Positions 1-36,504 of a DNA stretch of 64,000 nucleotides are shown piece after piece. Position 1 is the stretch's first letter, and each line of letters begins with the position of its first letter. Both the position numbers and the translations under genes were made by a program. The DNA is taken from positions 1,631 through 65,630 of the forward strand of contig JBDRTG010000034.1 in the NCBI GenBank assembly GCA_043824255.1, written 5' to 3'. Source of the stretch: a bacterium. Its GTDB lineage: Bacteria; JAHJDO01. The notes beneath the pieces are model-generated. The model was not told where the DNA came from. It made no database searches and saw only the letters and a list, made by a program, of their open reading frames with translations.

Positions 1-1
1 T

Positions 2-1027
2 GATTCTCTTTCTAATGACCCTTACAACGAAGCTAAGATTACTAAAATTTACTGTAAGTCCGTTAACAAAGTCTCTGCCTTTTTTGCTGATCTTCCTCAT
101 CCATGTACAGTTGCTGTTGAGGCGGTTGGTTTCTACCACTGGTTTTGGGATCTGGTCAGCCCTCTTGCCTCTGATATCTATCTCTTGAATGCTGTTGAAG
201 TCAGACGTTATGCAGGCAGGGACCCTAAGACCGACTCCAGAGATGCCAGACTTATTGCAAGACTTCTTGCTTCCAATGAAATTACTCATAATAGTAAGCT
301 CTCTGTCTTTGTCCCTGATAACAACCTCAGACCTATCAGAGAACTTACTCGCCATCGTCATCAAACTGCCCGTTCTCTCGCTTGCTCTAAAAATAGATTC
401 AGGCGTATTACTCTCAAAGAGAACCTTCCTGGGCCAAGAACTCTTGACGCTCATCATGCTCTCCGCTGGATCAGAGGCTTTGAAAATAAAACTTCTGATA
501 TCCATAAATTTCAGCTTAGACAGCTTACTGATCAAATAATTTCTCTTGAAAGAGATGTATCTGATATTGAAAGACAAATTCTTGATCTTATTAATAAAGC
601 AGGTTATCAATCTCTTATGAAACTCCTTCAAACAATCCCAGGTATTGGTGATGTAGTTGCTTATACTATTATCGCAGAGATCGGCGATTTCTCCAGATTT
701 CAAACTGCTGGACAAATCGCCTCTTTTGCAGGTCTCACTCCCAGAGTCTTTCAAAGCGGTAATTCCTGCAGGCATGGCGGTATTAATAAACAAGGACCTT
801 CCAATCTTAGATGGGCTCTTCAGCAATCCGCTTGGGTTGCTATTAAACATAGCGAGTTTATTAGAAAAGTATTTAATAAAATTAGCAGGAAAGCCGGCAA
901 GAAAAAGGCTGCTTACGCTATTGCCAGAAAGCTTCTTGTCTGGAGCTGGGCTATGGCTAAAAACAATATCGCTTTTAATAAAGACTTTATTAATAAAGAT
1001 AAAGAAAAAACAGAAAGGGCGGCTTAA
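2..1027 (+). CDS. IS110 family transposase (DEDD/RuvC-like N-domain plus Transposase_20 HhH C-domain), N-terminus outside window
   Basis: Frame 2 is open from position 2 and about 95% identical in protein to the 362-aa ORF at 32363-33451. It contains the IS110 C-terminal motif [42 protein letters not shown]. Confidence 0.9.
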   Translation, partial: DSLSNDPYNEAKITKIYCKSVNKVSAFFADLPHPCTVAVEAVGFYHWFWDLVSPLASDIYLLNAVEVRRYAGRDPKTDSRDARLIARLLASNEITHNSKLSVFVPDNNLRPIRELTRHRHQTARSLACSKNRFRRITLKENLPGPRTLDAHHALRWIRGFENKTSDIHKFQLRQLTDQIISLERDVSDIERQILDLINKAGYQSLMKLLQTIPGIGDVVAYTIIAEIGDFSRFQTAGQIASFAGLTPRVFQSGNSCRHGGINKQGPSNLRWALQQSAWVAIKHSEFIRKVFNKISRKAGKKKAAYAIARKLLVWSWAMAKNNIAFNKDFINKDKEKTERAA

Positions 1028-1281
1028 TAATGAAAATATTTCATACTCTCTAGGATTACACCTGCAGCAGTGACCCTGAGACTCTTTTTGAGCATAAGGC
1101 TCAAGCCGTAAAGCTCGATAACGTGAATAAGGCCTGCTACAGGCGTATTTGTTCTCGTGCGGCTCTTGACCGCGAATAGTTGATTGCGACCCTCGAGGGT
1201 TTTTGAGAATATGAAATACTACATTAAAAAGCTGGGAAAGCATTATGTGAAGGTTTTTAAACACGCACAGAAAATCATAGT
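1028..1281 (+). other. Conserved 3' non-coding end of IS copy A (candidate guide/bridge-RNA region)
   Basis: About 254 nt lie between the transposase stop and the element end. They align with 32109-32362 of copy B as conserved blocks interrupted by short variable patches. Confidence 0.4.
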
Positions 1282-1327
1282 TAAAAGCACACATTCTTCT
1301 CCATGTTCGTCTTGTTCTACTTAACAT
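1282..1327 (-). pseudogene. 5' fragment of a prepilin-type gene (leader MLSRTRRTWRRMCAF) interrupted by IS copy A
   Basis: On the minus strand, AAGAGAGAAAG (SD-like) is followed 7 nt later by ATG TTA AGT AGA ACA AGA CGA ACA TGG AGA AGA ATG TGT GCT TTT A, which then runs straight into the IS end. The leader is short and basic and ends in A-F, in the same codon phase as the interrupted gene at 32078. Confidence 0.5.
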
Positions 1328-1421
1328 AGTTTCACTTTCTCTCTTATTTTGCATTTTTTAATCTTTTTCAGGGAAAATATGAGCCACTTCATCCAGTCCT
1401 TTAAAGATTTTCCAGTATCGT

Positions 1422-29154: not shown

Positions 29155-32037
29155 ATGTATTACAGAAAAAGATATATGGATTGGGTTGGTGCTCTGGTTT
29201 TTTGTTCTATCATATTGGGGACGGTATTTTGCAAAGCGGAGAATCAAAACTTAGTGAAAAATCCAAGTTTTGAGGATGGACTCTGGGGCTGGAAAATGAA
29301 GCTCAGTGGAGATATAGCAGGTCGTGAAGACGACTTTATTTTCGAGACAACAAAAGAGGAAACAATAGATGGTAAATACTGCGTAAGAATGGTGTGGCCA
29401 GAAAAAATCCCCTGTGAGAATAGTACATCGCATCTTATTCAGAGAATAGATAAAGAATTTAAAAAAGGAGAAAGATATCGATTCAGTTTCCATGCAAAGT
29501 ACACGCTTCCAAGATATCCGAAGACCAACTATAAGATTTGTCGTTTAAGTTTCAAGAAATTGCAGGGAGGATTCAAGAATATAGACTTCAGAGAGAATAT
29601 AGCGTCATCTGGCTGGAAGAAATATAGCCTTGATTTTACAATAGAAAATGATGCAGAATGTGTGTATGTATACTTTTTTTCTCGTGTTAATGGTGAGACT
29701 ATATTAATTGATGATGTAAAACTTACTAAGATCGAAGAAGTTGAAGTAAAAGAAAAGAAGAATCCTGTAAAGAGTAGCAGTTATGCCGATATGCAGTTTT
29801 TTAAGTCTAGCCACAGCTCTGTTTCCTTCAAGGAATTACCTGATAAGTTGTTGTTTGCAAATTCCCATATTGGTCTTGGTTTTTACAGCAAAAACTATGG
29901 TTTTGCCCAATCCAGCATGTATAGTGTTGATAAGGATACAGACTTTTTGTTTCAAGATTTTCCGAAAGACAGGGCTCTCTGGCAGATAGTCTTAAGACGC
30001 GATAAGGGGAAAGATTCCGGAGAAATAATTTTGGACAATTTCAATCCTTCAGTTACCTCCTATAAGAGGGAAATAAATAATGACTGTAGCATCTTACATC
30101 TTTATTGGAAAGATCTAGGTGTTGCGGGAAAAAATGGTGCTCTGGATGTTGAAGTTACAGTCACATTGCAAAAAGATAATCCGTTATCCTTTTGGCGTAT
30201 CAATATTCAAAACAGGAGTAAAGTATACGGTATATGGCAGGTATTTTTCCCTATTATAAAAGTGGCTTCGATAGATGAAACTCCTGAAGATGACTATTTT
30301 ATGTTCTGCAAGGACCGCGGCAGACTCATTAAGAATCCCTATAATGCCCCAAAGGGTTTCAGGCATGGTTTGCATGTCGATGGAAGTTTTCCAGGCACAC
30401 TGGATATGCAATTTCAGGCTCTGTATGATGAATCCGGTATAGGTTTATATTTAGCAGCTTATGATGACAAATATTATTTCAAACGTTTTAGAGCAATACA
30501 AGATTCTGAAAACAATACAATAGAATTTAAATTTGGACATAATCCACCCAATATGGGTTATCCAGATGAAAATTACAGTTTACAGTACGATATGGTAATA
30601 GGAGTATTCTCAGGTGACTGGTACGATGCATGCCAGATCTACCGCAAATGGGCGATAAAACAACCATGGTGCAAAAAAGGTCCCTTAATTACAAGAGAAG
30701 ACATTCCCACATGGTATAAAGAAGCACCTGTGATGCTTAAAAACAACTCACCTGGTGGAGAGCCAGCAATTGCTTTAAACAGGGATCATTTCTTAGAATT
30801 TTTAGAATTTACAGGTGTTTCATTACCATCCATATGGTATGAATGGCCTAAATGTATTCCAGCTATGACTGCTTTTCGTATTGTTGGAGGTGGGACTACT
30901 CATAACGGCAACTATCCTAAAATTTCTTCCATTCCAGGTTTTGCCGAAGCATGCAAGACTATATCTGAAGCAGGAGGTTATCCTTCAGCATATGTCTGTG
31001 CAAGCATCTATGACCAGGGTCGTAACAATAATGCGCCTTATGCTAAATGGGCAGAACCATATGTCTGTAGGGATGTTAATCTAAAATTGATGTATTATCC
31101 AAAATTGCCAGTATGGCTGATGTGTACATCCGCTGAAGAGTGGCAGAACAGGATAAAAGATATATGTGTTGCGTTGGTAAAAAATGAAAATGTCAAAGGA
31201 ATATATCTGGATACACTTGATGGTGGAGGACCGCACTGTTTTAATACAAGCCATGGGCACTCTCATGGCGGAGGAAACTATAGAGGTTTGGGGGAAAGGA
31301 AACTCGCCAAGAAGGTTCGAGATGCTATAAAATCAATAGATCCTAAAGTTTTCATTACAGGTGAAAATCCAGCTGATTTTATGATTGATGTAATAGACGG
31401 GATGTTATACTCATATACCTATTTTCCCGGATTTATTCCTGTCCCGATGTTCGCTACTGTGTATAATGATTATATCCCAAGATATGGTAGGACGGCGCAT
31501 TTTTTTAATAAGGATTCGTTTTATTGGGAAACTGGATCTCTTTTTGCCGAAGGAGCACAAATGGGAAGGATGCGTATTGACACAGATTCTATAACTGAAC
31601 CAAAATATAAAGAAGAAGCAACGTTTCTCAAAAGACTAATTAACTATTATAAAAAAGAAGTAGGGGGTAATTACCTTTGCTATGGGCAGTTACTTAGACC
31701 AATAAGATTTTCAAAGCCTGATACTTTGCCCGTAGCATCATTTAAATTTGAAAGAAAATTTGAAGAAGAAGTTAAATTAAAAGCACTTTTTGGTGGTGTG
31801 TTTAAAAGTGCTACTAATGAAGATATATGTATTTTTATTGTAAATGCTTCTAATAAAAAGGTGGAATTTAGTTTCAACTTGGATTGCAAGAAGTATAATG
31901 TTCCATCTAATAAAGAGGTAAAAGTATGTAAGGTATCCGAAACCGGGGATCGAAAATCTCTTAAAACCTGTGGGGAGATTTTTGAATATTCTGATACAAT
32001 AGGTGCTCGTGACATTATTATGTTAGAATTAAAATAA
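29155..32037 (+). CDS. Large secreted putative glycoside hydrolase (N-terminal CBM4/9/22-like beta-sandwich; C-terminal TIM-barrel-like domain of unknown family)
   Basis: 960 aa with SD GGGAGG and a signal peptide. The N-terminus (NLVKNPSFEDGLWGWK) is typical of CBM_4_9. The C-terminal region contains IYLDTLDGGGPHCFNTSHGHSHGGG. The family assignment is uncertain. Confidence 0.5.
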   Translation: MYYRKRYMDWVGALVFCSIILGTVFCKAENQNLVKNPSFEDGLWGWKMKLSGDIAGREDDFIFETTKEETIDGKYCVRMVWPEKIPCENSTSHLIQRIDKEFKKGERYRFSFHAKYTLPRYPKTNYKICRLSFKKLQGGFKNIDFRENIASSGWKKYSLDFTIENDAECVYVYFFSRVNGETILIDDVKLTKIEEVEVKEKKNPVKSSSYADMQFFKSSHSSVSFKELPDKLLFANSHIGLGFYSKNYGFAQSSMYSVDKDTDFLFQDFPKDRALWQIVLRRDKGKDSGEIILDNFNPSVTSYKREINNDCSILHLYWKDLGVAGKNGALDVEVTVTLQKDNPLSFWRINIQNRSKVYGIWQVFFPIIKVASIDETPEDDYFMFCKDRGRLIKNPYNAPKGFRHGLHVDGSFPGTLDMQFQALYDESGIGLYLAAYDDKYYFKRFRAIQDSENNTIEFKFGHNPPNMGYPDENYSLQYDMVIGVFSGDWYDACQIYRKWAIKQPWCKKGPLITREDIPTWYKEAPVMLKNNSPGGEPAIALNRDHFLEFLEFTGVSLPSIWYEWPKCIPAMTAFRIVGGGTTHNGNYPKISSIPGFAEACKTISEAGGYPSAYVCASIYDQGRNNNAPYAKWAEPYVCRDVNLKLMYYPKLPVWLMCTSAEEWQNRIKDICVALVKNENVKGIYLDTLDGGGPHCFNTSHGHSHGGGNYRGLGERKLAKKVRDAIKSIDPKVFITGENPADFMIDVIDGMLYSYTYFPGFIPVPMFATVYNDYIPRYGRTAHFFNKDSFYWETGSLFAEGAQMGRMRIDTDSITEPKYKEEATFLKRLINYYKKEVGGNYLCYGQLLRPIRFSKPDTLPVASFKFERKFEEEVKLKALFGGVFKSATNEDICIFIVNASNKKVEFSFNLDCKKYNVPSNKEVKVCKVSETGDRKSLKTCGEIFEYSDTIGARDIIMLELK

Positions 32038-32100
32038 CTGAGCAGTCTACTTATAAAACTTAAGAGGAGATAAACTCATGAGACGATTAAGGAACATGTT

Positions 32101-32108
32101 TGGTTTCA
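32101..32108. repeat. 8-bp direct repeat TGGTTTCA at the IS junction (left copy)
   Basis: Identical 8-mers at 32101-32108 and 33526-33533 bracket the insert. This is either a target duplication or a shared core sequence. Confidence 0.8.
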
Positions 32109-32362
32109 ACTATGATTTTCTGTGTGTACTAAAAAATCTTCACATAACAATTTCACAACTTTTTAATGTAGTATTTCATAATCTCAAAACCTCTCAATGG
32201 TCGCAATCAACTATCCGCGGTCAAGAGCCGCACGAGAACAAATACGCCTGCAGCAGGCCTTATTCACGCTATCGAGCTTTACGGCTTGGGCCTTATGCTC
32301 ATAAAAGCACTCAAGGTCACTGCTGCAGGTGTAATCCTAGAGAGTATGAAATATTTTCATTA
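32109..32362 (-). other. Conserved 3' non-coding end of IS copy B (candidate guide/bridge-RNA region)
   Basis: It lies downstream of the transposase stop. It aligns with 1028-1281 of copy A as conserved blocks, with variable patches at, for example, 32148-32159. Confidence 0.4.
32112..32124. repeat. Subterminal inverted repeat of IS copy B (3' end): ATGATTTTCTGTG
   Basis: Its reverse-complement partner is CACAGAAAATACAT at 33513-33526, matching 13 of 14 positions with one indel. Copy A has the same sequence at 1266-1278. Confidence 0.7.
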
Positions 32363-33451
32363 TTAAGCCGCCCTTTCCGTTTTTTCTTTATCTTTATTAA
32401 TAAAGTCTTTATTAAAGGCAATATTGTTTTTAGCCATAGCCCAGCTCCAGACAAGAAGCTTTCTGGCAATAGCGCAAGCAGCCTTTTTCTTACCGGCTTT
32501 CCTGCTAATTTTATTAAATATTTTTCTGATAAATTCGCTGTGTCTAATAGCAACCCAAGCAGATTGTTGAAGAGCCCATCTAAGATTTGGAGGACCTTGT
32601 TTATTAATTCTTCCGTGCCTGCAGGAATCACCGCTTTGAAAGACTCTGGGAGTAAGACCGGCAAAAGAGGCGATTTGTCCAGACGTTTGAAATCTGGAGA
32701 AATCGCCGATCTCTGCGATAATAGTATACGCAGCTACATCACCAATACCTTGAATTGTTTGAAGGAGTTTCATAAGAGGCTGATAACCCGCCTTATTAAT
32801 AAGGTCAAGAATTTGTCTTTCAATATCAGAGACATCTCTTTCAAAAGAAATAATCTGATCAGTAAGTTGTCTGAGCTGAAATTTATGGATATCAGAAGTT
32901 TTGTTTTCAAAGCCTCTGATCCAGCGAAGAGCATGATGAGCGTCAAGAGTTTTTGGCCCTGGAAGGTTTTCTTTAAGGGTAATACGCCTGAATCTATTTT
33001 TAGAGCAAGCGAGAGAACGGGCAGTTTGATGACGATGTCGAGTAAGTTCTCTGATAGGTCTGAGGTTATTGTCGGGGACAAAGACAGAGAGCTTACTATT
33101 ATGAGTAATTTCACTGGAAGCAAGAAGTCGCGCAATAAGTCTGGCATCTCTGGAGTCAGTCTTAGGGTCCCTGCCAGCATAACGCCTGACTTCAACAGCA
33201 TTCAAGAGATAGATATCAGAAGCAAGAGGGCTGACCAGATCCCAGAACCAGTGATAGAAGCCAACAGCCTCAACAGCAACTGTGCATGGATGAGGAAGGT
33301 CAGCAAAAAAGGCAGAGACTTTGTTAACGCATTTACAGTGAATTTTAGTAATCTTCGCTTCCCTATAAGGGTCATTAGAAAGAGAATCAGTTACAGCAAT
33401 AGTCATAGAATCCTTATGAAGATCCACACCAGCGTACGTAATTGTATCCAT
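32363..33451 (-). CDS. IS110 family transposase
   Basis: 362 aa. The N-terminal DEDD domain begins [15 protein letters not shown]. The C-terminal motif is [42 protein letters not shown]. An AGGAGG SD lies upstream. Confidence 0.95.
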
Positions 33452-33512
33452 TCTTTTGCCTCCTGTTTTAAGGTTAAATTACCTGTTTATCGTTTTCGCC
33501 ATTTTATCCTAG

Positions 33513-33526
33513 CACAGAAAATACAT
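33513..33526. repeat. Subterminal inverted repeat of IS copy B (5' end): CACAGAAAATACAT
   Basis: This is the inverted partner of 32112-32124. Confidence 0.7.
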
Positions 33527-33533
33527 GGTTTCA
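33526..33533. repeat. 8-bp direct repeat TGGTTTCA at the IS junction (right copy)
   Basis: Identical to 32101-32108. Confidence 0.8.
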
Positions 33534-34189
33534 CCTTGATAGAGCTTTTGGTTGTGATTGCAATAATCGCGCTTCTCGCGTCAATGCTTTTGCCTGCTTT
33601 GATGCAGGCAAGGGAGATGGGGAAAAGAACAAAATGCCTTAGTAACCTGAGACAATTAGGCATGGCTATCCAGATGTATGTCGATGACTATGATGGTTGG
33701 TTCCGTCCATATTATGTCAGTACATGGAGTGATTACAGGTGGAGATATTGGCCAAATTCTCTTGTTTGTCCGGGTTATATAAAAAATCCTGATGTATTTT
33801 ATTGTCCTTCTCTGGCGCCATTTAATGGTAGTAATGTGAATTCTAAATGGAATGGAGCTTATTTCGACGCTGTTCCCCTAACTTATGGATTGAGGAGATG
33901 GGGTATAGGTGATGAGCCTATTTTCAAGATAGAGAATCCGTCAGCTTATTTCATTCTGGTAGATAGTGTATTAGATATTCCAGGAAATGCAGAGCATATG
34001 CTACAGGTCTACAATGTTGATGACGCTGGTCAAGCTGTTCATGTTCGGCATAATGAGAGGGCAAATACTTTATTTGCTGACTGGCATGTAGAGGCGAAAG
34101 AAGAAAGCTATTTTACTGATTTGGGTTATGATGTGTATCCATGACTCATTTAACCTTCAAAGAAATTTAACTAAAATATGAGGCTGAAA

Positions 34190-35434
34190 ATGACAGTTAA
34201 AGTGGGAATAATAGGTACAGGTGGTAGAGGAATCGGTTTTATAAGACATATAAATGAACGCAAGGATGCTCTTATAACTGCATTGTGTGATCCGAATCAT
34301 GTGCGTATGAAGAAAGTTGCAGAATTAAAGATTGAAGGTGTTCCCTTATGTATCCACAAGCCGCAACTTTATACTACTATAGGGGATATGCTAAGTTCTG
34401 AAGAGTTGGATGCGGTTATAATCACAAGTCCTGATTATTGCCATGAGGCTAATGCAATTGATGCTTTAGAAAAAGACATTTTTGTGCTTATAGACAAACC
34501 GCTTGCTACCACTACAGAGGGATGTATGAATGTACTTAAGGCAGCTAAGAAATCTAAAGCTACTGTTATGATAGGGTCTAATCTACGTCATGATCCAACA
34601 TTAATGAAGGTTAAGGAAATTGTCTCCAAAGGGGATCTGGGACGAATATTCATGATAGAGAACAGAGAATTCTACGATGGCGGGAAAACATATCTTGCGC
34701 GCTGGAATGGAAAGCAGAAGTACAGCGGTGGATTATGGGTTCATAAAGGAACTCATGATTTTGATATTTTTAACTGGTTAAATCAGGGTGGAAAGCCTCT
34801 CAGAGTCTCTGCATTTGCAGAAAGAAGTGCCTTGAGAAAAGAGGAAATCCCATTCAAAATTAAACCTAAAAAACCAGTTGGGCTAACCTGTACAGAATGT
34901 AGTTATAGAGATATTTGTCCTGATTTTGTTGCCCGAAATACTAAATTATGGGGTAGAGAAGCACAGGCAGTTGATAAATACGCAAAGGATCTTTGTATTT
35001 ATACTTCAGATGCTGATGTTTATGATAATGGTATCGCAATTGTAGAATATGATAATGGGGTTAGGGCTTCACATCTTGAATGTTTTGTAACTTCTTTATC
35101 AGATAGGCTATATACCATTGTTGGAACTAAAGGACAGCTCTCTGCCAGCTTACATGATAGAAAGATCGAAATTCGACCACGTTGGGCAAAAGATGTTACT
35201 GCAACTACAATAGAAATTCCTAAGGTAAGGGGAGGTCATGGTGGAGCTGATACTGGATTAACAGAGCGTTTTTTGGAAGTGGTGAGGGAAAAAAGGGAAC
35301 CTTCTTCCTCGCTTATTGATGGTACATTTTCTGTTGCGATAGGGGAGGCTGCAGAACACTCATGGCGCGAACATCGAATGGTTGAAATATCAGAAGTTCT
35401 GGATGTAAATAACAATCTCCTTAAGAAAGGATGA
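34190..35434 (+). CDS. Gfo/Idh/MocA family oxidoreductase
   Basis: It has the N-terminal Rossmann motif VGIIGTGGRGIG and the EKP-like motif (IDKPLA). The start at 34190 is preferred because GAGG lies 6 nt upstream; the ORF is open from 34178. Confidence 0.8.
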   Translation: MTVKVGIIGTGGRGIGFIRHINERKDALITALCDPNHVRMKKVAELKIEGVPLCIHKPQLYTTIGDMLSSEELDAVIITSPDYCHEANAIDALEKDIFVLIDKPLATTTEGCMNVLKAAKKSKATVMIGSNLRHDPTLMKVKEIVSKGDLGRIFMIENREFYDGGKTYLARWNGKQKYSGGLWVHKGTHDFDIFNWLNQGGKPLRVSAFAERSALRKEEIPFKIKPKKPVGLTCTECSYRDICPDFVARNTKLWGREAQAVDKYAKDLCIYTSDADVYDNGIAIVEYDNGVRASHLECFVTSLSDRLYTIVGTKGQLSASLHDRKIEIRPRWAKDVTATTIEIPKVRGGHGGADTGLTERFLEVVREKREPSSSLIDGTFSVAIGEAAEHSWREHRMVEISEVLDVNNNLLKKG

Positions 35435-36504
35435 GCACAATAATGACTCCAAAGGAAAGAGTTGAAGCAGTACTTCTTTCTCGTCAGGCAGATCATGTGC
35501 CTTTTACAGTTTATGAGAATAAGATTCCACAGTGTGAATGTGAAAGAGAGCTGAGAAATGAGGGATTGTGTATAGTAAATCGCATAAAGGTTTTTAAAAC
35601 TGAAACACCTGATGTAAAGACTCAGAGTATTCACTGTATTGATGAGAAGGATGGTGTCTCAAAAATCAAGACTGTGTATAAAACTCCTCATGGAGATCTT
35701 TCTACTATAAATGTTCCTGCAGGATTTACTACATGGCATGAGGAGCTAATTTTTAAAACTCCTGATGATTACAAAGCAATCGAGTTTATGATTAGAAACA
35801 GACAATATAGAGCTGACTATGAGCCAGTCGTAAAACAGATGAAGTTAGCAGGAGGCGATATTATTTTCAGGGCAGGGATTGGATACGAACCCATGCAGGA
35901 AATAATTCACTCTATCATGGGGATTGAGGTTTTTTCCCTTGAATGGATGGACAACAGAGATGAAATAATGAAATTGTATGATGCTCTTGTGGAAGATAGA
36001 AGGAAGATATATCCAATAGTAGCTGAGTCTCCTGTGCTTCATGCAAATTATGGAGGCAACGTTACACCTGAAATAGTTGGTTTGGAACGTTTCAAAAAGT
36101 ATTATGTGTCCCATTACAATGAATGCGCAGAAATTATGCACAAGCATGGAAAGCTGTTGGGGACACATCTTGACGCAAATAATAAGCTACTAGCTGATGC
36201 TGTTCGGGAGACTGATCTTGATTATGTTGAAGCTTTTACTCCTCCGCCTGACTGCGACTTAAGTGTTGAGAAAGCATTGGAAATATGGTCTGAGAAGAAA
36301 TTATGGATAAACTTTCCATCATCAGTCCATCTTTCAAGCATAGAAGTTATTGAAGATACGATGCGAAAGATATTAAAGGAATCCGGTGATGGCACAAGAC
36401 TTATTGTTGGTATTACAGAAGACGTTCCAGAAGATCGCTGGCAGGAGAGCTTTTCAGCTATTGTAAAGGTCTTGAATACAGATGGAATGTTGCCTCTTTC
36501 CTAA
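35431..36504 (+). CDS. Uroporphyrinogen-decarboxylase (URO-D)-like family protein of unknown specificity
   Basis: 357 aa. The N-terminal PKERVEAVLLSRQADHVPF and the overall pattern resemble URO-D/MtaA-like TIM barrels. It overlaps the upstream gene by 4 nt. Confidence 0.45.
   Translation: MSTIMTPKERVEAVLLSRQADHVPFTVYENKIPQCECERELRNEGLCIVNRIKVFKTETPDVKTQSIHCIDEKDGVSKIKTVYKTPHGDLSTINVPAGFTTWHEELIFKTPDDYKAIEFMIRNRQYRADYEPVVKQMKLAGGDIIFRAGIGYEPMQEIIHSIMGIEVFSLEWMDNRDEIMKLYDALVEDRRKIYPIVAESPVLHANYGGNVTPEIVGLERFKKYYVSHYNECAEIMHKHGKLLGTHLDANNKLLADAVRETDLDYVEAFTPPPDCDLSVEKALEIWSEKKLWINFPSSVHLSSIEVIEDTMRKILKESGDGTRLIVGITEDVPEDRWQESFSAIVKVLNTDGMLPLS

What the first reader, a model, noticed from the sequence alone, without database searches (positions are those of the whole stretch)
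1..1327. The second IS copy interrupts a different prepilin-type leader at the same motif, codon phase and orientation
**Junction at copy A.** On the minus strand, AAGAGAGAAAG is followed 7 nt later by ATG TTA AGT AGA ACA AGA CGA ACA TGG AGA AGA ATG TGT GCT TTT A, and then the IS end begins. This is a short basic leader, MLSRTRRTWRRMCAF, ending in A-F.

**Parallels with copy B.**
- The junction 8-mer TGCTTTTA matches copy B's TGGTTTCA at 6 of 8 positions.
- Both host fragments end on codon position 1. Their lengths are 46 and 31 nt, both 1 mod 3.
- In both cases the transposase is antisense to the host gene.

**Interpretation.** The two leaders differ, so these are independent insertions. That argues for guided, motif-specific integration rather than duplication of a disrupted locus.
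Basis: seen in the sequence. Interest (0 to 1): 0.7.

Follow-up and report, generated by a model that had tools for sequence, protein, structure and literature searches.

The report
RNA-guided IS that spares prepilin genes
Two diverged copies of an RNA-guided (IS1111-type) insertion sequence sit at exactly the same codon of two different prepilin-type genes, and the element appears built so that the interrupted gene can still be read straight through it.

Summary
Copy A (window 1-1281) abuts a short basic leader, MLSRTRRTWRRMCAF. Its junction, codon phase and antisense orientation match those of copy B (32109-33529).

The interpretation of independent, guided insertion is supported:
- An uninterrupted 213-aa allele of copy B's target exists in a related genome.
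- In all 40 distant relatives of the transposase (26-54% identity) whose left flank is visible, the element abuts an antisense FTLIEL motif at the Phe codon.
- The 3' non-coding region folds into a covarying bridge/seekRNA-like target loop, and its variable 9-mer tracks the flanking leader.
- Copy B's 9-mer, GTGCTTTTA, is an exact match to copy A's site.

Targeting by IS110/IS1111 guide RNAs is already known. What looks new:
- **Open frame.** The whole antisense strand of the IS (UTR, transposase gene and guide-RNA region) has no stop codon in the host gene's frame. This holds in copies A, B and a third copy inside gspG, in a 38% GC genome.
- **Length.** Inserted lengths are multiples of 3 in 23 of the 24 relatives where both ends could be placed.
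- **Cleavage site.** The IS donates its own Gly(-1)-Phe(+1) codons.
- **Sister clade.** A related clade instead carries an outward promoter, ribosome-binding site, ATG and substitute leader.

I infer, but have not shown, a host-sparing design that relies on prepilin peptidase. The DNA left of copy A could not be retrieved.

The parts
1..1281 (+). IS copy A, an IS1111-type element. Its left ~140 nt are cut off by the window edge.
   Evidence: It is a 92% inverted repeat with 32096-33389. The right end ...CACAGAAAATCATAGT stops at 1281.
2..1027 (+). Transposase gene of copy A. The first 21 codons lie outside the window; the stop codon is at 1025-1027.
   Evidence: PF01548 and PF02371. The full 362-aa product, P0251, is on record for the source contig. 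It is 95.3% identical to copy B's transposase, with 51 synonymous and 16 non-synonymous codon differences.
1028..1281 (+). 3' non-coding region of copy A, encoding the bridge/seekRNA-like RNA.
   Evidence: A conserved, covarying structure is shared with 22 relatives. No Rfam family matches it.
1061..1077 (+). 5' arm of the stem (P1) that closes the target-binding loop. It pairs with 1129-1143.
   Evidence: Alignment A2, columns 18-34 with 89-105. 90-96% of cells are paired and 10 pairs carry compensatory changes; slid controls give about 40%. Copy A has a C·A mismatch here (CCCT against AAGG).
1080..1088 (+). Variable 5' side of the target-binding loop (right-target guide). In copy A it reads GACTCTTTT.
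   Evidence: It is homologous to the position that tracks the flanking leader across loci. In copy A it matches its own site poorly, at about 5 of 9 positions.
1118..1128 (+). Conserved 3' side of the target-binding loop (left-target guide), ATAACGTGAAT. It has the same sequence as the ..GTGAA flank, which is the antisense of Phe-Thr.
   Evidence: Nearly invariant, TA[AG][CGT]GTGA[AC], in all clades.
1176..1183 (+). Donor-side guide ATAGTTGA, identical to the right IS end plus junction (CATAGT|TGA).
   Evidence: The variable base covaries with the IS end: T in the window type and the closed clade, A in the GC-rich clade, C in L016.
1266..1275 (+). Right sub-terminal inverted repeat, CACAGAAAAT.
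   Evidence: In copy B the same 10-mer pairs perfectly with the left-end repeat (32115-32124 with 33513-33522).
1282..1327 (-). Host fragment: the start of a prepilin-type gene, MLSRTRRTWRRMCAF plus 1 nt. TAAA at 1282-1285 is the Phe codon TTT plus A.
   Evidence: Leaders of the same type lie at the same junction in 25 relatives.
1335..1345 (-). Purine-rich stretch AAGAGAGAAAG, 7 nt upstream of the leader ATG. It is a possible ribosome-binding site.
   Evidence: Read directly from the sequence. Not tested further.
2..1327 (-). Stop-free antisense reading frame running from the host ATG through all of copy A to the window edge (442 codons).
   Evidence: No Pfam domain was found in it.
32109..33529 (-). 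IS copy B, complete. It is 1421 nt, or 1425 nt with one copy of the junction TTCA.
   Evidence: Comparison with the empty site in L052 shows that exactly this segment is the insertion.
32363..33451 (-). Transposase gene of copy B (362 aa).
   Evidence: It contains no TTA, CTA or TCA codons among 30 Leu and 25 Ser, where 16.2 are expected from host codon usage.
32302..32310 (-). Right-target guide of copy B, GTGCTTTTA. This is the exact sense-strand sequence of copy A's junction.
32078..34144 (+). 688-aa open frame: host leader [10 protein letters not shown], then 475 codons of antisense IS, then (KIH)G|FTLIELLVV... and the prepilin-type protein.
   Evidence: TIGR02532 and PF07963 match residues 481-505 above their cutoffs.

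Best explanation
**Shown**
- Copies A and B are separate insertions of one family of IS1111-type, RNA-guided insertion sequences.
- The family is specialised on the most conserved stretch of prepilin-type genes, the leader/mature junction ([G/A]-F|T-L-I-E-L).
- Each element encodes a DEDD transposase and, downstream of it, a structured RNA with an internal loop.
  - The conserved 3' side of the loop (..GCGUGAA) has the same sequence as the Phe-Thr side of the target.
  - The variable 5' 9-mer (NNNNNUU[U/C]A) is complementary to the leader side of the target.
- Insertion is always antisense and lies at or next to the A of the Thr codon.
- The element brings its own ..CAT GGT TTC (His-Gly-Phe) at its left end.

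**Inferred**
- The element is built to spare its target gene.
- In the window type (copies A and B, plus a third copy in gspG) and in several distant lineages, the inserted DNA is a multiple of 3. Its entire antisense strand has no stop codon in the host frame.
- A ribosome starting at the host ATG would therefore make: leader, then about 475 filler residues, then Gly|Phe-Thr-Leu-Ile-Glu.
- The leader of a prepilin stays on the cytoplasmic side of the membrane. Prepilin peptidase could therefore still cut at the IS-supplied Gly|Phe and release a normal mature protein, and downstream genes would escape polarity.
- A sister clade reaches the same end differently. Its left end carries an outward promoter, a ribosome-binding site, an ATG and a substitute leader ending in ..HG, in frame with the host Phe.
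For: **Target specificity**
- All 40 relatives with a visible left flank show the motif. L016 has the variant FTFLE.
- 25 right flanks encode leaders ending in [G/A]F.
- An empty site exists for copy B.

**Guide RNA**
- Stem P1 is 90-96% paired with 10 compensatory pairs; slid controls give about 40%.
- Matches between the variable 9-mer and the flank: 126 of 152 observed, 113 ± 3 in permutations, P = 8e-5. L027 has both UUUA in the guide and TAAA in the target.
- The donor guide ATAG[N]TGA covaries with the IS end.
- Architecture fits the IS1111 type: the non-coding region lies 3' of the gene, sub-terminal repeats are present, and the top-strand match lies 5' of the bottom-strand match, as described in PMC11187229.

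**Open frame in the window type**
- 442 and 688 codons without a stop.
- The transposase gene has no TTA, CTA or TCA codons. 16.2 are expected, P about 3.5e-9, at the same GC3 as the host. All 39 host ORFs have 5-52 such codons.
- A Bacillus IS110-family transposase gene at the same GC has 17.
- UTR plus non-coding region: P(no stop) = 0.0016.
- The frame survives 96 substitutions between A and B; simulation gives P = 0.028.
- It also survives 90 substitutions between B and the gspG copy.
- Only openness is conserved. Codon differences are 10 synonymous and 57 non-synonymous in the antisense frame, against 51 and 16 in the transposase frame.

**Relatives**
- 23 of 24 complete elements have a length divisible by 3.
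- Non-coding-region lengths are 258, 267, 270, 285, 312, 315, 342, 384 and 390, all divisible by 3.
- There are no frame-0 stops in UTR, coding sequence or non-coding region in winB, L016 and the 18 full-length GC-rich loci.
- Per non-coding region, P(no stop) = 0.007-0.077.
- A 693-nt deletion derivative (L007) is also a multiple of 3 and open.

**Cleavage site**
- The IS-donated -1 codon is GGT, GGC, GGA or GGG (Gly). Less often it is GCC or GCA (Ala) or AGT (Ser).
- The filler is hydrophilic, with no 19-residue window above 1.6 on the Kyte-Doolittle scale.

**gspG copy.** One copy sits in gspG within an otherwise intact gspD-E-F-G..J-K-pilMN operon, with the frame open.

**Sister clade.** Seven distinct left-end variants each carry a ribosome-binding site, an in-frame ATG and a leader ending in ..HG|F. 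One has TTGACA-17-TAAACT facing outward.
Against: - No expression, protein or processing data exist. Cleavage of a leader of about 490 aa by a prepilin peptidase has no precedent that I know of.
- In GC-rich relatives, a stop-free in-register antisense frame over the coding sequence is expected from composition alone. Unrelated IS110-family genes at GC 0.63 or above have 0, 0, 0 and 3 stops. There the case rests on the non-coding regions and on the lengths.
- Exceptions exist.
  - L049-51 (transposase 81% identical) are open but 3n+1 long, so the leader is out of frame.
  - L038 is 3n+2 and closed.
  - In L021, L043 and L045 the in-frame antisense frame closes after 118-180 codons.
- L055 and L056 show the same IS in a non-prepilin site.
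- Identical elements sit in sites with different leader-side sequence (L025/26/28, L032/33/34). The variable guide is therefore tolerant of mismatches.
- Copy A's and copy B's own 9-mers match their own sites at only 5-6 of 8-9 positions.
- The left flank of copy A was never seen.
Confidence: 0.7

Rival explanations
1. These are ordinary knock-out insertions. The IS targets a redundant gene family, and the open antisense frame is a by-product of transposase codon bias and strand composition rather than of selection for read-through.
For: - In-register antisense frames are often open. Unrelated GC-rich IS110-family genes have 0, 0, 0 and 3 stops.
- The coding sequences of the closed-clade loci L002 and L009 also have no in-register stops.
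- A second low-GC IS110-family gene, in L055, has only 1.
- The antisense peptide is not conserved and has no homologues.
Against: - Host GC3 equals that of the transposase gene, yet all 39 host ORFs carry 5-52 such codons.
- The non-coding UTR and guide-RNA region are also stop-free (P = 0.0016).
- Nine distinct non-coding-region lengths are all divisible by 3.
- The -1 codon varies synonymously among Gly codons.
- The closed clade has stops exactly where it carries its own ATG and leader.
Confidence: 0.12
2. The frame is kept open so that host-driven transcription and translation can run through the element. The benefit would be avoiding Rho-dependent polarity on downstream genes, or damping transposase and guide-RNA expression by antisense traffic. 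The product would be a non-functional fusion, not a processed pilin-like protein.
For: - The gspG copy sits in the middle of an operon.
- The frame is open and in phase up to the natural stop codon.
- No precedent is known to me for cleavage of very long leaders.
Against: - The element conserves a small residue (Gly, Ala or Ser) at -1 and donates Phe at +1.
- The sister clade supplies a short, conventional leader with its own start signals, which makes sense only if the protein itself matters.
- The filler lacks membrane-like segments.
Confidence: 0.15
3. The antisense frame encodes a genuine IS protein, an overlapping gene.
For: It is a long open frame conserved in openness across lineages.
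Against: - The substitution pattern is 10 synonymous to 57 non-synonymous.
- There is no Pfam hit and no homologue among 5.8 billion predicted proteins.
- It has no start codon of its own in the open clades.
- It runs across the structured RNA region.
Confidence: 0.02
4. Copy A arose by duplication of the already disrupted copy B locus.
For: Both copies share the same junction geometry.
Against: - The leaders and flanking genes differ.
- The copies are 7.5% diverged.
- An empty-site allele of B exists.
Confidence: 0.01

Closest known systems
IS1111-group elements of the IS110 family with seekRNA/bridge RNA (ISEc11, ISPa11, ISKpn4, IS4321/IS5075; IS621 for the IS110 group). Sources: PMC11187229, PMC11208160.
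   Same: - DEDD transposase with the GL-P----SG motif.
- Long non-coding region 3' of the gene.
- Sub-terminal inverted repeats.
- Orientation-specific insertion at one short sequence.
- Internal RNA loops with one segment matching each strand of the target. The top-strand match lies 5' of the bottom-strand match.
- Natural diversification of the guide.
   Different: - The target is a protein-coding motif of a gene family, the prepilin leader/mature junction. Known targets are REP elements, attC sites or transposon ends.
- The whole element is stop-free in the host frame and 3n long, or carries an outward expression cassette with a substitute leader.
- No such property turned up in the papers searched.
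Self-splicing introns and inteins (from general knowledge).
   Same: They are selfish elements that insert in conserved coding sequence and neutralise the damage because the insertion is removed from the gene product.
   Different: Here removal would be done by a host enzyme, prepilin peptidase, at a site the element brings along. It would not be done by the element's own RNA or protein chemistry. There is no sequence or structural relationship. This is an analogy only.
Rickettsia palindromic elements and other small mobile repeats translated in frame within genes (general knowledge; reviewed in PMC2229807).
   Same: Mobile DNA inserted in frame and translated as part of the host protein.
   Different: Those are non-autonomous elements of 100-150 bp that remain in the mature protein. 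Here a full 1.4-kb autonomous IS would be translated on its antisense strand as a disposable N-terminal extension.
Piv, the DEDD invertase of Moraxella type IV pilin genes. It is a relative of IS110/IS1111 transposases (mentioned in PMC11187229; cited in PMC11208160).
   Same: A DEDD recombinase acting inside type IV pilin coding sequence.
   Different: Piv inverts a resident segment to switch pilin variants. It is not a transposing element, and no guide RNA or read-through design has been described for it.
Insertion sequences with outward-facing promoters, and integrating elements that carry a replacement copy of the gene end they displace (general knowledge).
   Same: The closed clade's left end carries an outward promoter and restores the displaced 5' end of the gene.
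   Different: The replacement is a whole translational start: ribosome-binding site, ATG and leader ending in Gly, all in frame. In several copies a poly-G run lies in the promoter spacer.

Membership tests
IS110 family (DEDD, RNA-guided transposase) | Transposase with the DEDD_Tnp_IS110 (PF01548) and Transposase_20 (PF02371) domains | tested here: met
   (E = 2.6e-12 and 5.7e-28). NF033542 at 244.7 bits against a cutoff of 140. IS621 transposase 8wt6 at E = 3.7e-19.
IS1111 group | The longer non-coding region lies downstream of the transposase gene | tested here: met
   254 nt lie 3' of the gene and 78 nt lie 5' of it in copy B. The criterion is taken from PMC11187229.
IS1111 group | Sub-terminal inverted repeats of 7-17 bp | tested here: met
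   A perfect 10-nt pair, ATTTTCTGTG / CACAGAAAAT, lies 6-7 nt inside both ends.
IS1111 group | C-terminal GL-P----S(T)G motif | tested here: met
   [12 protein letters not shown] is present in both copies.
IS1111 group | seekRNA with a top-strand match 5' of a bottom-strand match, overlapping in the target | tested here: met
   The loop is closed by a covarying stem. The 5' 9-mer is complementary to T[G/A]AA plus the leader side (P = 8e-5). The 3' side ..GCGTGAA equals the left target. The RNA itself was not detected.
IS1111 group | Circular intermediate and RNA-dependent transposition | not testable with these tools
   Needs an experiment.
Rfam families | A match to a curated covariance model | tested here: not met
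   No hit at gathering thresholds. Only a chance-level ALIL match at E = 0.73.
Prepilin-type (type IV pilin-like) protein: copy B target | N-terminal cleavage/methylation domain with G(-1), F(+1), E(+5) and a hydrophobic helix | tested here: met
   TIGR02532 at 28.6 bits (cutoff 16.3) and PF07963 at 31.4 bits (cutoff 21.2). The reconstituted protein equals P0119, annotated as such.
Prepilin-type protein: copy A target | The same domain, continuing after the leader | not testable with these tools
   Only MLSRTRRTWRRMCAF is in the window. A(-1)F leaders are common at this junction in relatives. The left flank could not be retrieved.
DUF1559 / H-X9-DG prepilin-associated family: copy B target | PF07596 or TIGR04294 above cutoff; an H-X9-DG box near the C-terminus | tested here: inconclusive
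   PF07596 scores 20.9 bits against a cutoff of 23.3. TIGR04294 is not listed. The C-terminus reads [12 protein letters not shown], that is H-X9-DW. The closest homologues carry PF07596.

The most novel reading that the evidence does not exclude
An autonomous insertion sequence has evolved to be translationally transparent. It inserts only into the cytoplasmic leader of prepilin-type proteins. It keeps its whole antisense strand, including the region that encodes its guide RNA, as a stop-free in-frame filler. It also supplies a fresh Gly|Phe cleavage site. The host's prepilin peptidase would then remove the IS-encoded polypeptide and the target protein, even GspG of a type II secretion system, would stay functional. 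Relatives solve the same problem with an IS-borne promoter, ribosome-binding site, ATG and substitute leader.
Probability: 0.45. Interest if true: 0.9.

Novelty: new variant of a known kind. Interest (0 to 1): 0.8.

Why it matters
RNA-guided IS110/IS1111 elements are under intense study as genome-editing tools, and their natural targets have been described as intergenic repeats or parts of other mobile elements.

This lineage shows three things that I did not find described:
- It targets a conserved protein-coding motif shared by a large gene family across several bacterial phyla.
- Its guide segment diversifies among near-identical copies in one genome.
- It carries sequence-level signs that an IS is selected to leave its target gene expressible.

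If the read-through and cleavage model holds, the consequences would be:
- A third route, alongside introns and inteins, by which selfish DNA hides inside genes. It would be directly testable with a peptidase assay.
- Evidence that prepilin peptidases tolerate very long leaders.
- A constraint on the guide-RNA region, which would have to fold as RNA on one strand and stay stop-free on the other.
- Reason to rethink annotating these interrupted genes as pseudogenes.

Tried and rejected
**The DNA left of copy A: not recovered**
- Exact-protein look-ups returned only a 956-nt read-assembly contig, or nothing.
- The syntenic locus in a related genome (L053) has different genes at that position and no prepilin gene.

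**Searches that found nothing**
- The antisense polypeptide against 5.8 billion predicted proteins gave no hit, so database fusions could not be counted.
- Rfam has no model for this RNA.
- The literature searches found no description of IS110/IS1111 elements targeting prepilin genes or being kept open in frame. This covers only the held library.

**Ideas I dropped**
- I first read GACCTTGA (GACCCTGA in copy A) as an extra guide against the Thr-Leu codons. I rejected this because the segment is conserved across clades and pairs with AAGG as part of the closing stem.
- I first took TGAA as a 4-nt duplicated core. Where the right junction is TAAA, the left junction is still TGAA (L013, L016, L027, L047, L049). 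The Gly and Phe codons on the mature side are therefore IS-borne, and the shared core may be as short as one base.
- I did not find a convincing guide for the left IS end in the second loop.

**Evidence I downgraded**
- The open coding sequence in GC-rich relatives is not counted as evidence, following the control.
Full report
**1. The observation**

Window 1-1281 is the right-hand ~1.28 kb of an insertion sequence, cut off by the window edge. A complete second copy lies inverted at 32109-33529. The two form a 1294-nt inverted repeat at 92% identity (alignment).

The protein is an IS110-family DEDD transposase. It carries PF01548 and PF02371. It matches NF033542, 'IS110 family RNA-guided transposase', at 244.7 bits. 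It also matches the solved IS621 transposase at E = 3.7e-19.

Next to copy B it reads ATG AGA CGA TTA AGG AAC ATG TTT GGT TTC A, then the IS end. The fragment lengths (46 and 31 nt), the 6-of-8 match and the antisense orientation are all correct.

**2. Copy B is a true insertion into an intact gene**

I joined the two halves of copy B's host gene and searched with the result. This returned a 213-aa protein, P0119, at 99% identity and full length. It is annotated as a prepilin-type N-terminal cleavage/methylation protein. Its locus, L052, has the same neighbouring genes. Its DNA reads ..ATGTTTGGTTTTACCTTGATG.. with nothing inserted. In the window the same sequence is split by 1425 nt.

The mature half matches TIGR02532 and PF07963 above their cutoffs. 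It matches DUF1559 (PF07596) just below cutoff. Only one FTLIEL-type motif exists in the 64-kb window.

**3. The targeting holds across the whole clade**

One scan of a genome collection and one of a metagenome collection with the transposase gave 45 loci at 26-54% identity. They come from MAGs labelled Acidobacteria, Verrucomicrobiota and Limisphaerales, and from environmental metagenome contigs.
- In all 40 loci where at least 17 nt of left flank is present, the element abuts ...[I/V]-L-E-I-L-T-F read antisense. The junction is always ..GTGAA| followed by NCC(T)ATG... L016 has the variant FTFLE.
- In 25 loci with a right flank, that flank read antisense is a short leader ending in [G/A]F. 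Examples are MRKGF, MSQRKKAF and ..RRAF.

Copy A's Ala-Phe ending is therefore ordinary for this target.

Closer copies were found by protein search.
- A copy whose transposase is 97% identical to B's sits in gspG, inside an otherwise intact gspD-E-F-G..J-K-pilMN operon (L047, L048).
- A relative at 81% identity sits in DUF1559 and Laminin_G_3 genes (L049-51).
- Two contigs show the window-type IS in a non-prepilin site, the loop of a hairpin next to another IS110-family element (L055/56). Specificity is therefore high but not absolute.

**4. The guide RNA**

The element has the IS1111 layout described in PMC11187229:
- 254 nt of non-coding DNA downstream of the gene, against 78 nt upstream;
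- 10-nt perfect sub-terminal inverted repeats;
- the [10 protein letters not shown] motif.

The non-coding region folds below shuffled controls (z = -2.8). In an alignment of 23 diverse copies a long stem is 90-96% paired, with compensatory changes at 10 pairs. Slid controls give about 40%.

That stem closes an internal loop with two sides.
- **The 3' side** is nearly invariant, ..TAGCGTGAA... It has the same sequence as the ..GTGAA flank.
- **The 5' side** is a 9-mer ending in TT[C/T]A. It varies between copies and is complementary to T[G/A]AA plus the leader side of the target.

Over 19 loci the 8-mer matches its own flank at 126 of 152 positions. Permuted pairings give 113 ± 3 (P = 8e-5). 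Within the GC-rich clade alone, P = 0.003. L027 has both TTTA in the guide and TAAA in the target.

A second conserved segment, ATAG[N]TGA, equals the right IS end plus junction and covaries with it: T, A or C in three clades. Rfam has no model that matches.

The 9-mer is the most variable short segment among near-identical copies:

| Copy | 9-mer |
|---|---|
| B | GTGCTTTTA |
| A | GACTCTTTT |
| gspG copy | ATTCGTTTA |
| L055 | GCGCCTTTA |
| L049 | GTGCCTTTA |

Copy B's 9-mer is an exact 9-of-9 match to copy A's junction (TGT GCT TTT A). Copy A's own 9-mer matches its site poorly, and copy A also has a mismatch in the closing stem. A simple reading is that site A was chosen by a B-type RNA acting in trans, or present in A's ancestor. 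This is an inference.

Identical elements sit in sites with different leader-side sequence (L025/26/28, L032/33/34). The variable guide therefore tolerates mismatches.

**5. The unexpected part: the element does not break the reading frame**

Copy B lies inside a single 688-aa open frame (32078-34144, +). It runs [10 protein letters not shown], then 475 codons of antisense IS, then KIHG, then FTLIELLVV.... Copy A is open for all 442 codons from the host ATG to the window edge. The gspG copy is open too: MSKKGF, 475 codons, KIHG|FTLIELMLVV...

The antisense codons are in register with the transposase codons, so the gene must avoid TTA, CTA and TCA.
- It has none among 30 Leu and 25 Ser codons. 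Host synonymous usage predicts 16.2 (P about 3.5e-9), and GC3 is the same (0.31-0.32).
- All 39 host ORFs in the window have 5-52 such codons.
- An unrelated Bacillus IS110-family gene of the same GC content has 17.

The untranslated 78-nt and 258-nt regions are also stop-free (P = 0.0016 by dinucleotide shuffling).

The frame survives 96 substitutions between A and B. About 3.4 new stops would be expected, P = 0.028. It also survives 90 substitutions between B and the gspG copy.

Only openness is conserved. In the antisense frame the differing codons are 10 synonymous and 57 non-synonymous, against 51 and 16 for the transposase. The filler has no Pfam domain and no homologue among predicted proteins. 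It is hydrophilic and has no membrane-like segment.

**6. The same signature in relatives**

Of 24 relatives where both ends could be placed, 23 have an inserted length divisible by 3. The lengths fall into 12 distinct values between 1362 and 1611 nt, plus a 693-nt deletion derivative.

WinB, L016 and the 18 full-length GC-rich loci have no frame-0 antisense stops in UTR, coding sequence or non-coding region. The other two frames have many. The non-coding-region lengths are 258, 267, 270, 285, 312, 315, 342, 384 and 390, all multiples of 3.

A caveat applies. For GC-rich genes an open in-register antisense frame is expected from composition alone (0, 0, 0 and 3 stops in four unrelated controls). 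In those lineages only the non-coding regions (P(no stop) = 0.007-0.077 each) and the lengths count as evidence.

Exceptions:
- L049-51 are open but 3n+1 long, so the leader M..RRAF is out of frame.
- L038 is 3n+2 and closed.
- In L021, L043 and L045 the in-frame antisense frame closes after 118-180 codons.

**7. The element donates the cleavage site**

The first three bases of the left end are ACC, GCC, CCC or TCC, which encode Gly through all four codons. Less often they are GGC or TGC (Ala) or ACT (Ser).

Where the right junction is TAAA, the left junction is still TGAA (L013, L016, L027, L047, L049). The Phe codon on the mature side is therefore also IS-borne. The crossover lies at or next to the A of the Thr codon.

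From general knowledge, prepilin peptidases cut after a small residue, usually Gly, before Phe. They do so on the cytoplasmic face of the membrane, where the leader stays.

**8. A sister clade uses a different fix**

The 51-54% identical, AT-rich relatives are L002/9/14, L008, L012, L013/40, L015, L039/41/42 and L046. They have stops 17-37 codons into the element.

Their longer left end carries, facing outward, a ribosome-binding site, an in-frame ATG and a short leader ending in ..(K/Q)(E/Q)HG directly before the host Phe. There are seven distinct variants, for example GAGGAGG-N6-ATG, giving MFKKMVSKSKNIVSQIQHG|FTLIELLV. In L013 the scan finds TTGACA-17-TAAACT on that strand. Several copies have 8-11 G in the promoter spacer.

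Two different devices with the same outcome argue that keeping the target protein expressible is what is selected.

**9. Mechanism and confidence**

- **Shown by sequence comparison:** RNA-guided-type, orientation-specific insertion at the Phe/Thr codons of prepilin-type genes; independent events for A and B; conservation of an open, in-phase antisense frame; an IS-borne Gly-Phe.
- **Inferred:** translation from the host start across the IS; cleavage by prepilin peptidase; little or no harm to the host. This is plausible because the leader is cytoplasmic, but it has no precedent at this length.
- **Rivals:** a compositional by-product; avoidance of polarity or antisense self-regulation without a functional protein; an overlapping IS gene; duplication of a disrupted locus. 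They are weighed in the rival section.

**10. Comparison and novelty**

The element meets the tested criteria for the IS1111 group of the IS110 family, so it is a member of a known kind. The target class and the frame-preserving architecture were not found in the papers searched. The comparisons with inteins, introns and in-frame Rickettsia repeats are analogies only. Piv, a DEDD relative that recombines inside type IV pilin genes, is a notable parallel.

**11. Limits**

The left flank of copy A was not seen. No expression data are available. The organism is known only as an unclassified 'bacterium' MAG; the homologues that carry names come from Omnitrophota, Lentisphaeria and Verrucomicrobiota.

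Noticed in passing
L013 172-200 (minus strand); also L008, L039-L042, L040 and L046 left ends: The outward promoter-like site in the left end of the closed-clade elements (TTGACA-N-TAAACT/TAGACT) has a run of 8-11 G in its spacer, and the run length differs between copies. This resembles a slipped-strand phase-variation switch for the re-armed prepilin gene.
   Followed up: partly
L047 3515-5400 (and L048): A copy whose transposase is 97% identical to copy B's interrupts gspG, the major pseudopilin gene, inside an otherwise intact type II secretion operon (secretin, gspE, gspF, [IS], gspG, ..gspJ, gspK, pilM/N). The host frame stays open through the IS.
   Followed up: yes
window 32302-32310 compared with window 1282-1290: Copy B's variable guide 9-mer (GTGCTTTTA) is an exact match to copy A's insertion site. 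Copy A's own guide and closing stem look degraded. This suggests mobilisation in trans, or decay of the guide after insertion.
   Followed up: partly
L009 1609-1640: The right flank of this element is the left end of another copy, so the two lie in tandem. Insertion regenerates a target-like GTGAA|ACC site, which would favour tandem arrays.
   Followed up: no
L007 2919-3612: A 693-nt internally deleted derivative has both IS ends. It is still a multiple of 3 and stop-free in the host frame.
   Followed up: partly
L049, L050, L051: Three metagenome contigs share the same right flank (the DeoR side) but have different genes on the left flank. This indicates either IS-mediated rearrangement or assembly chimeras. 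L050 and L051 carry a 42-nt hairpin insertion in the left end. These elements are 3n+1 long although open in the mature-side frame.
   Followed up: partly
L055 150-2814; L056: The window-type IS is inserted in the loop of a perfect hairpin (ATGTCCCTACA..TGTAGGGACAT) just upstream of a second IS110-family transposase gene. That gene has only 1 in-register antisense stop at GC 0.42.
   Followed up: no
window 29155-32037 and 34178-36504: Copy B's target gene sits between a 960-aa protein and GFO/IDH/MocA-type oxidoreductases. The ortholog of the 960-aa protein carries CBM_4_9 and DUF6259. The pilin-like gene is therefore embedded in what looks like a carbohydrate-utilisation locus.
   Followed up: no
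window 44809-45046 and 15415-15489: Three adjacent tRNA genes, plus one more elsewhere, were found by the Rfam scan. They are unrelated to the finding.
   Followed up: no
   Followed up: no
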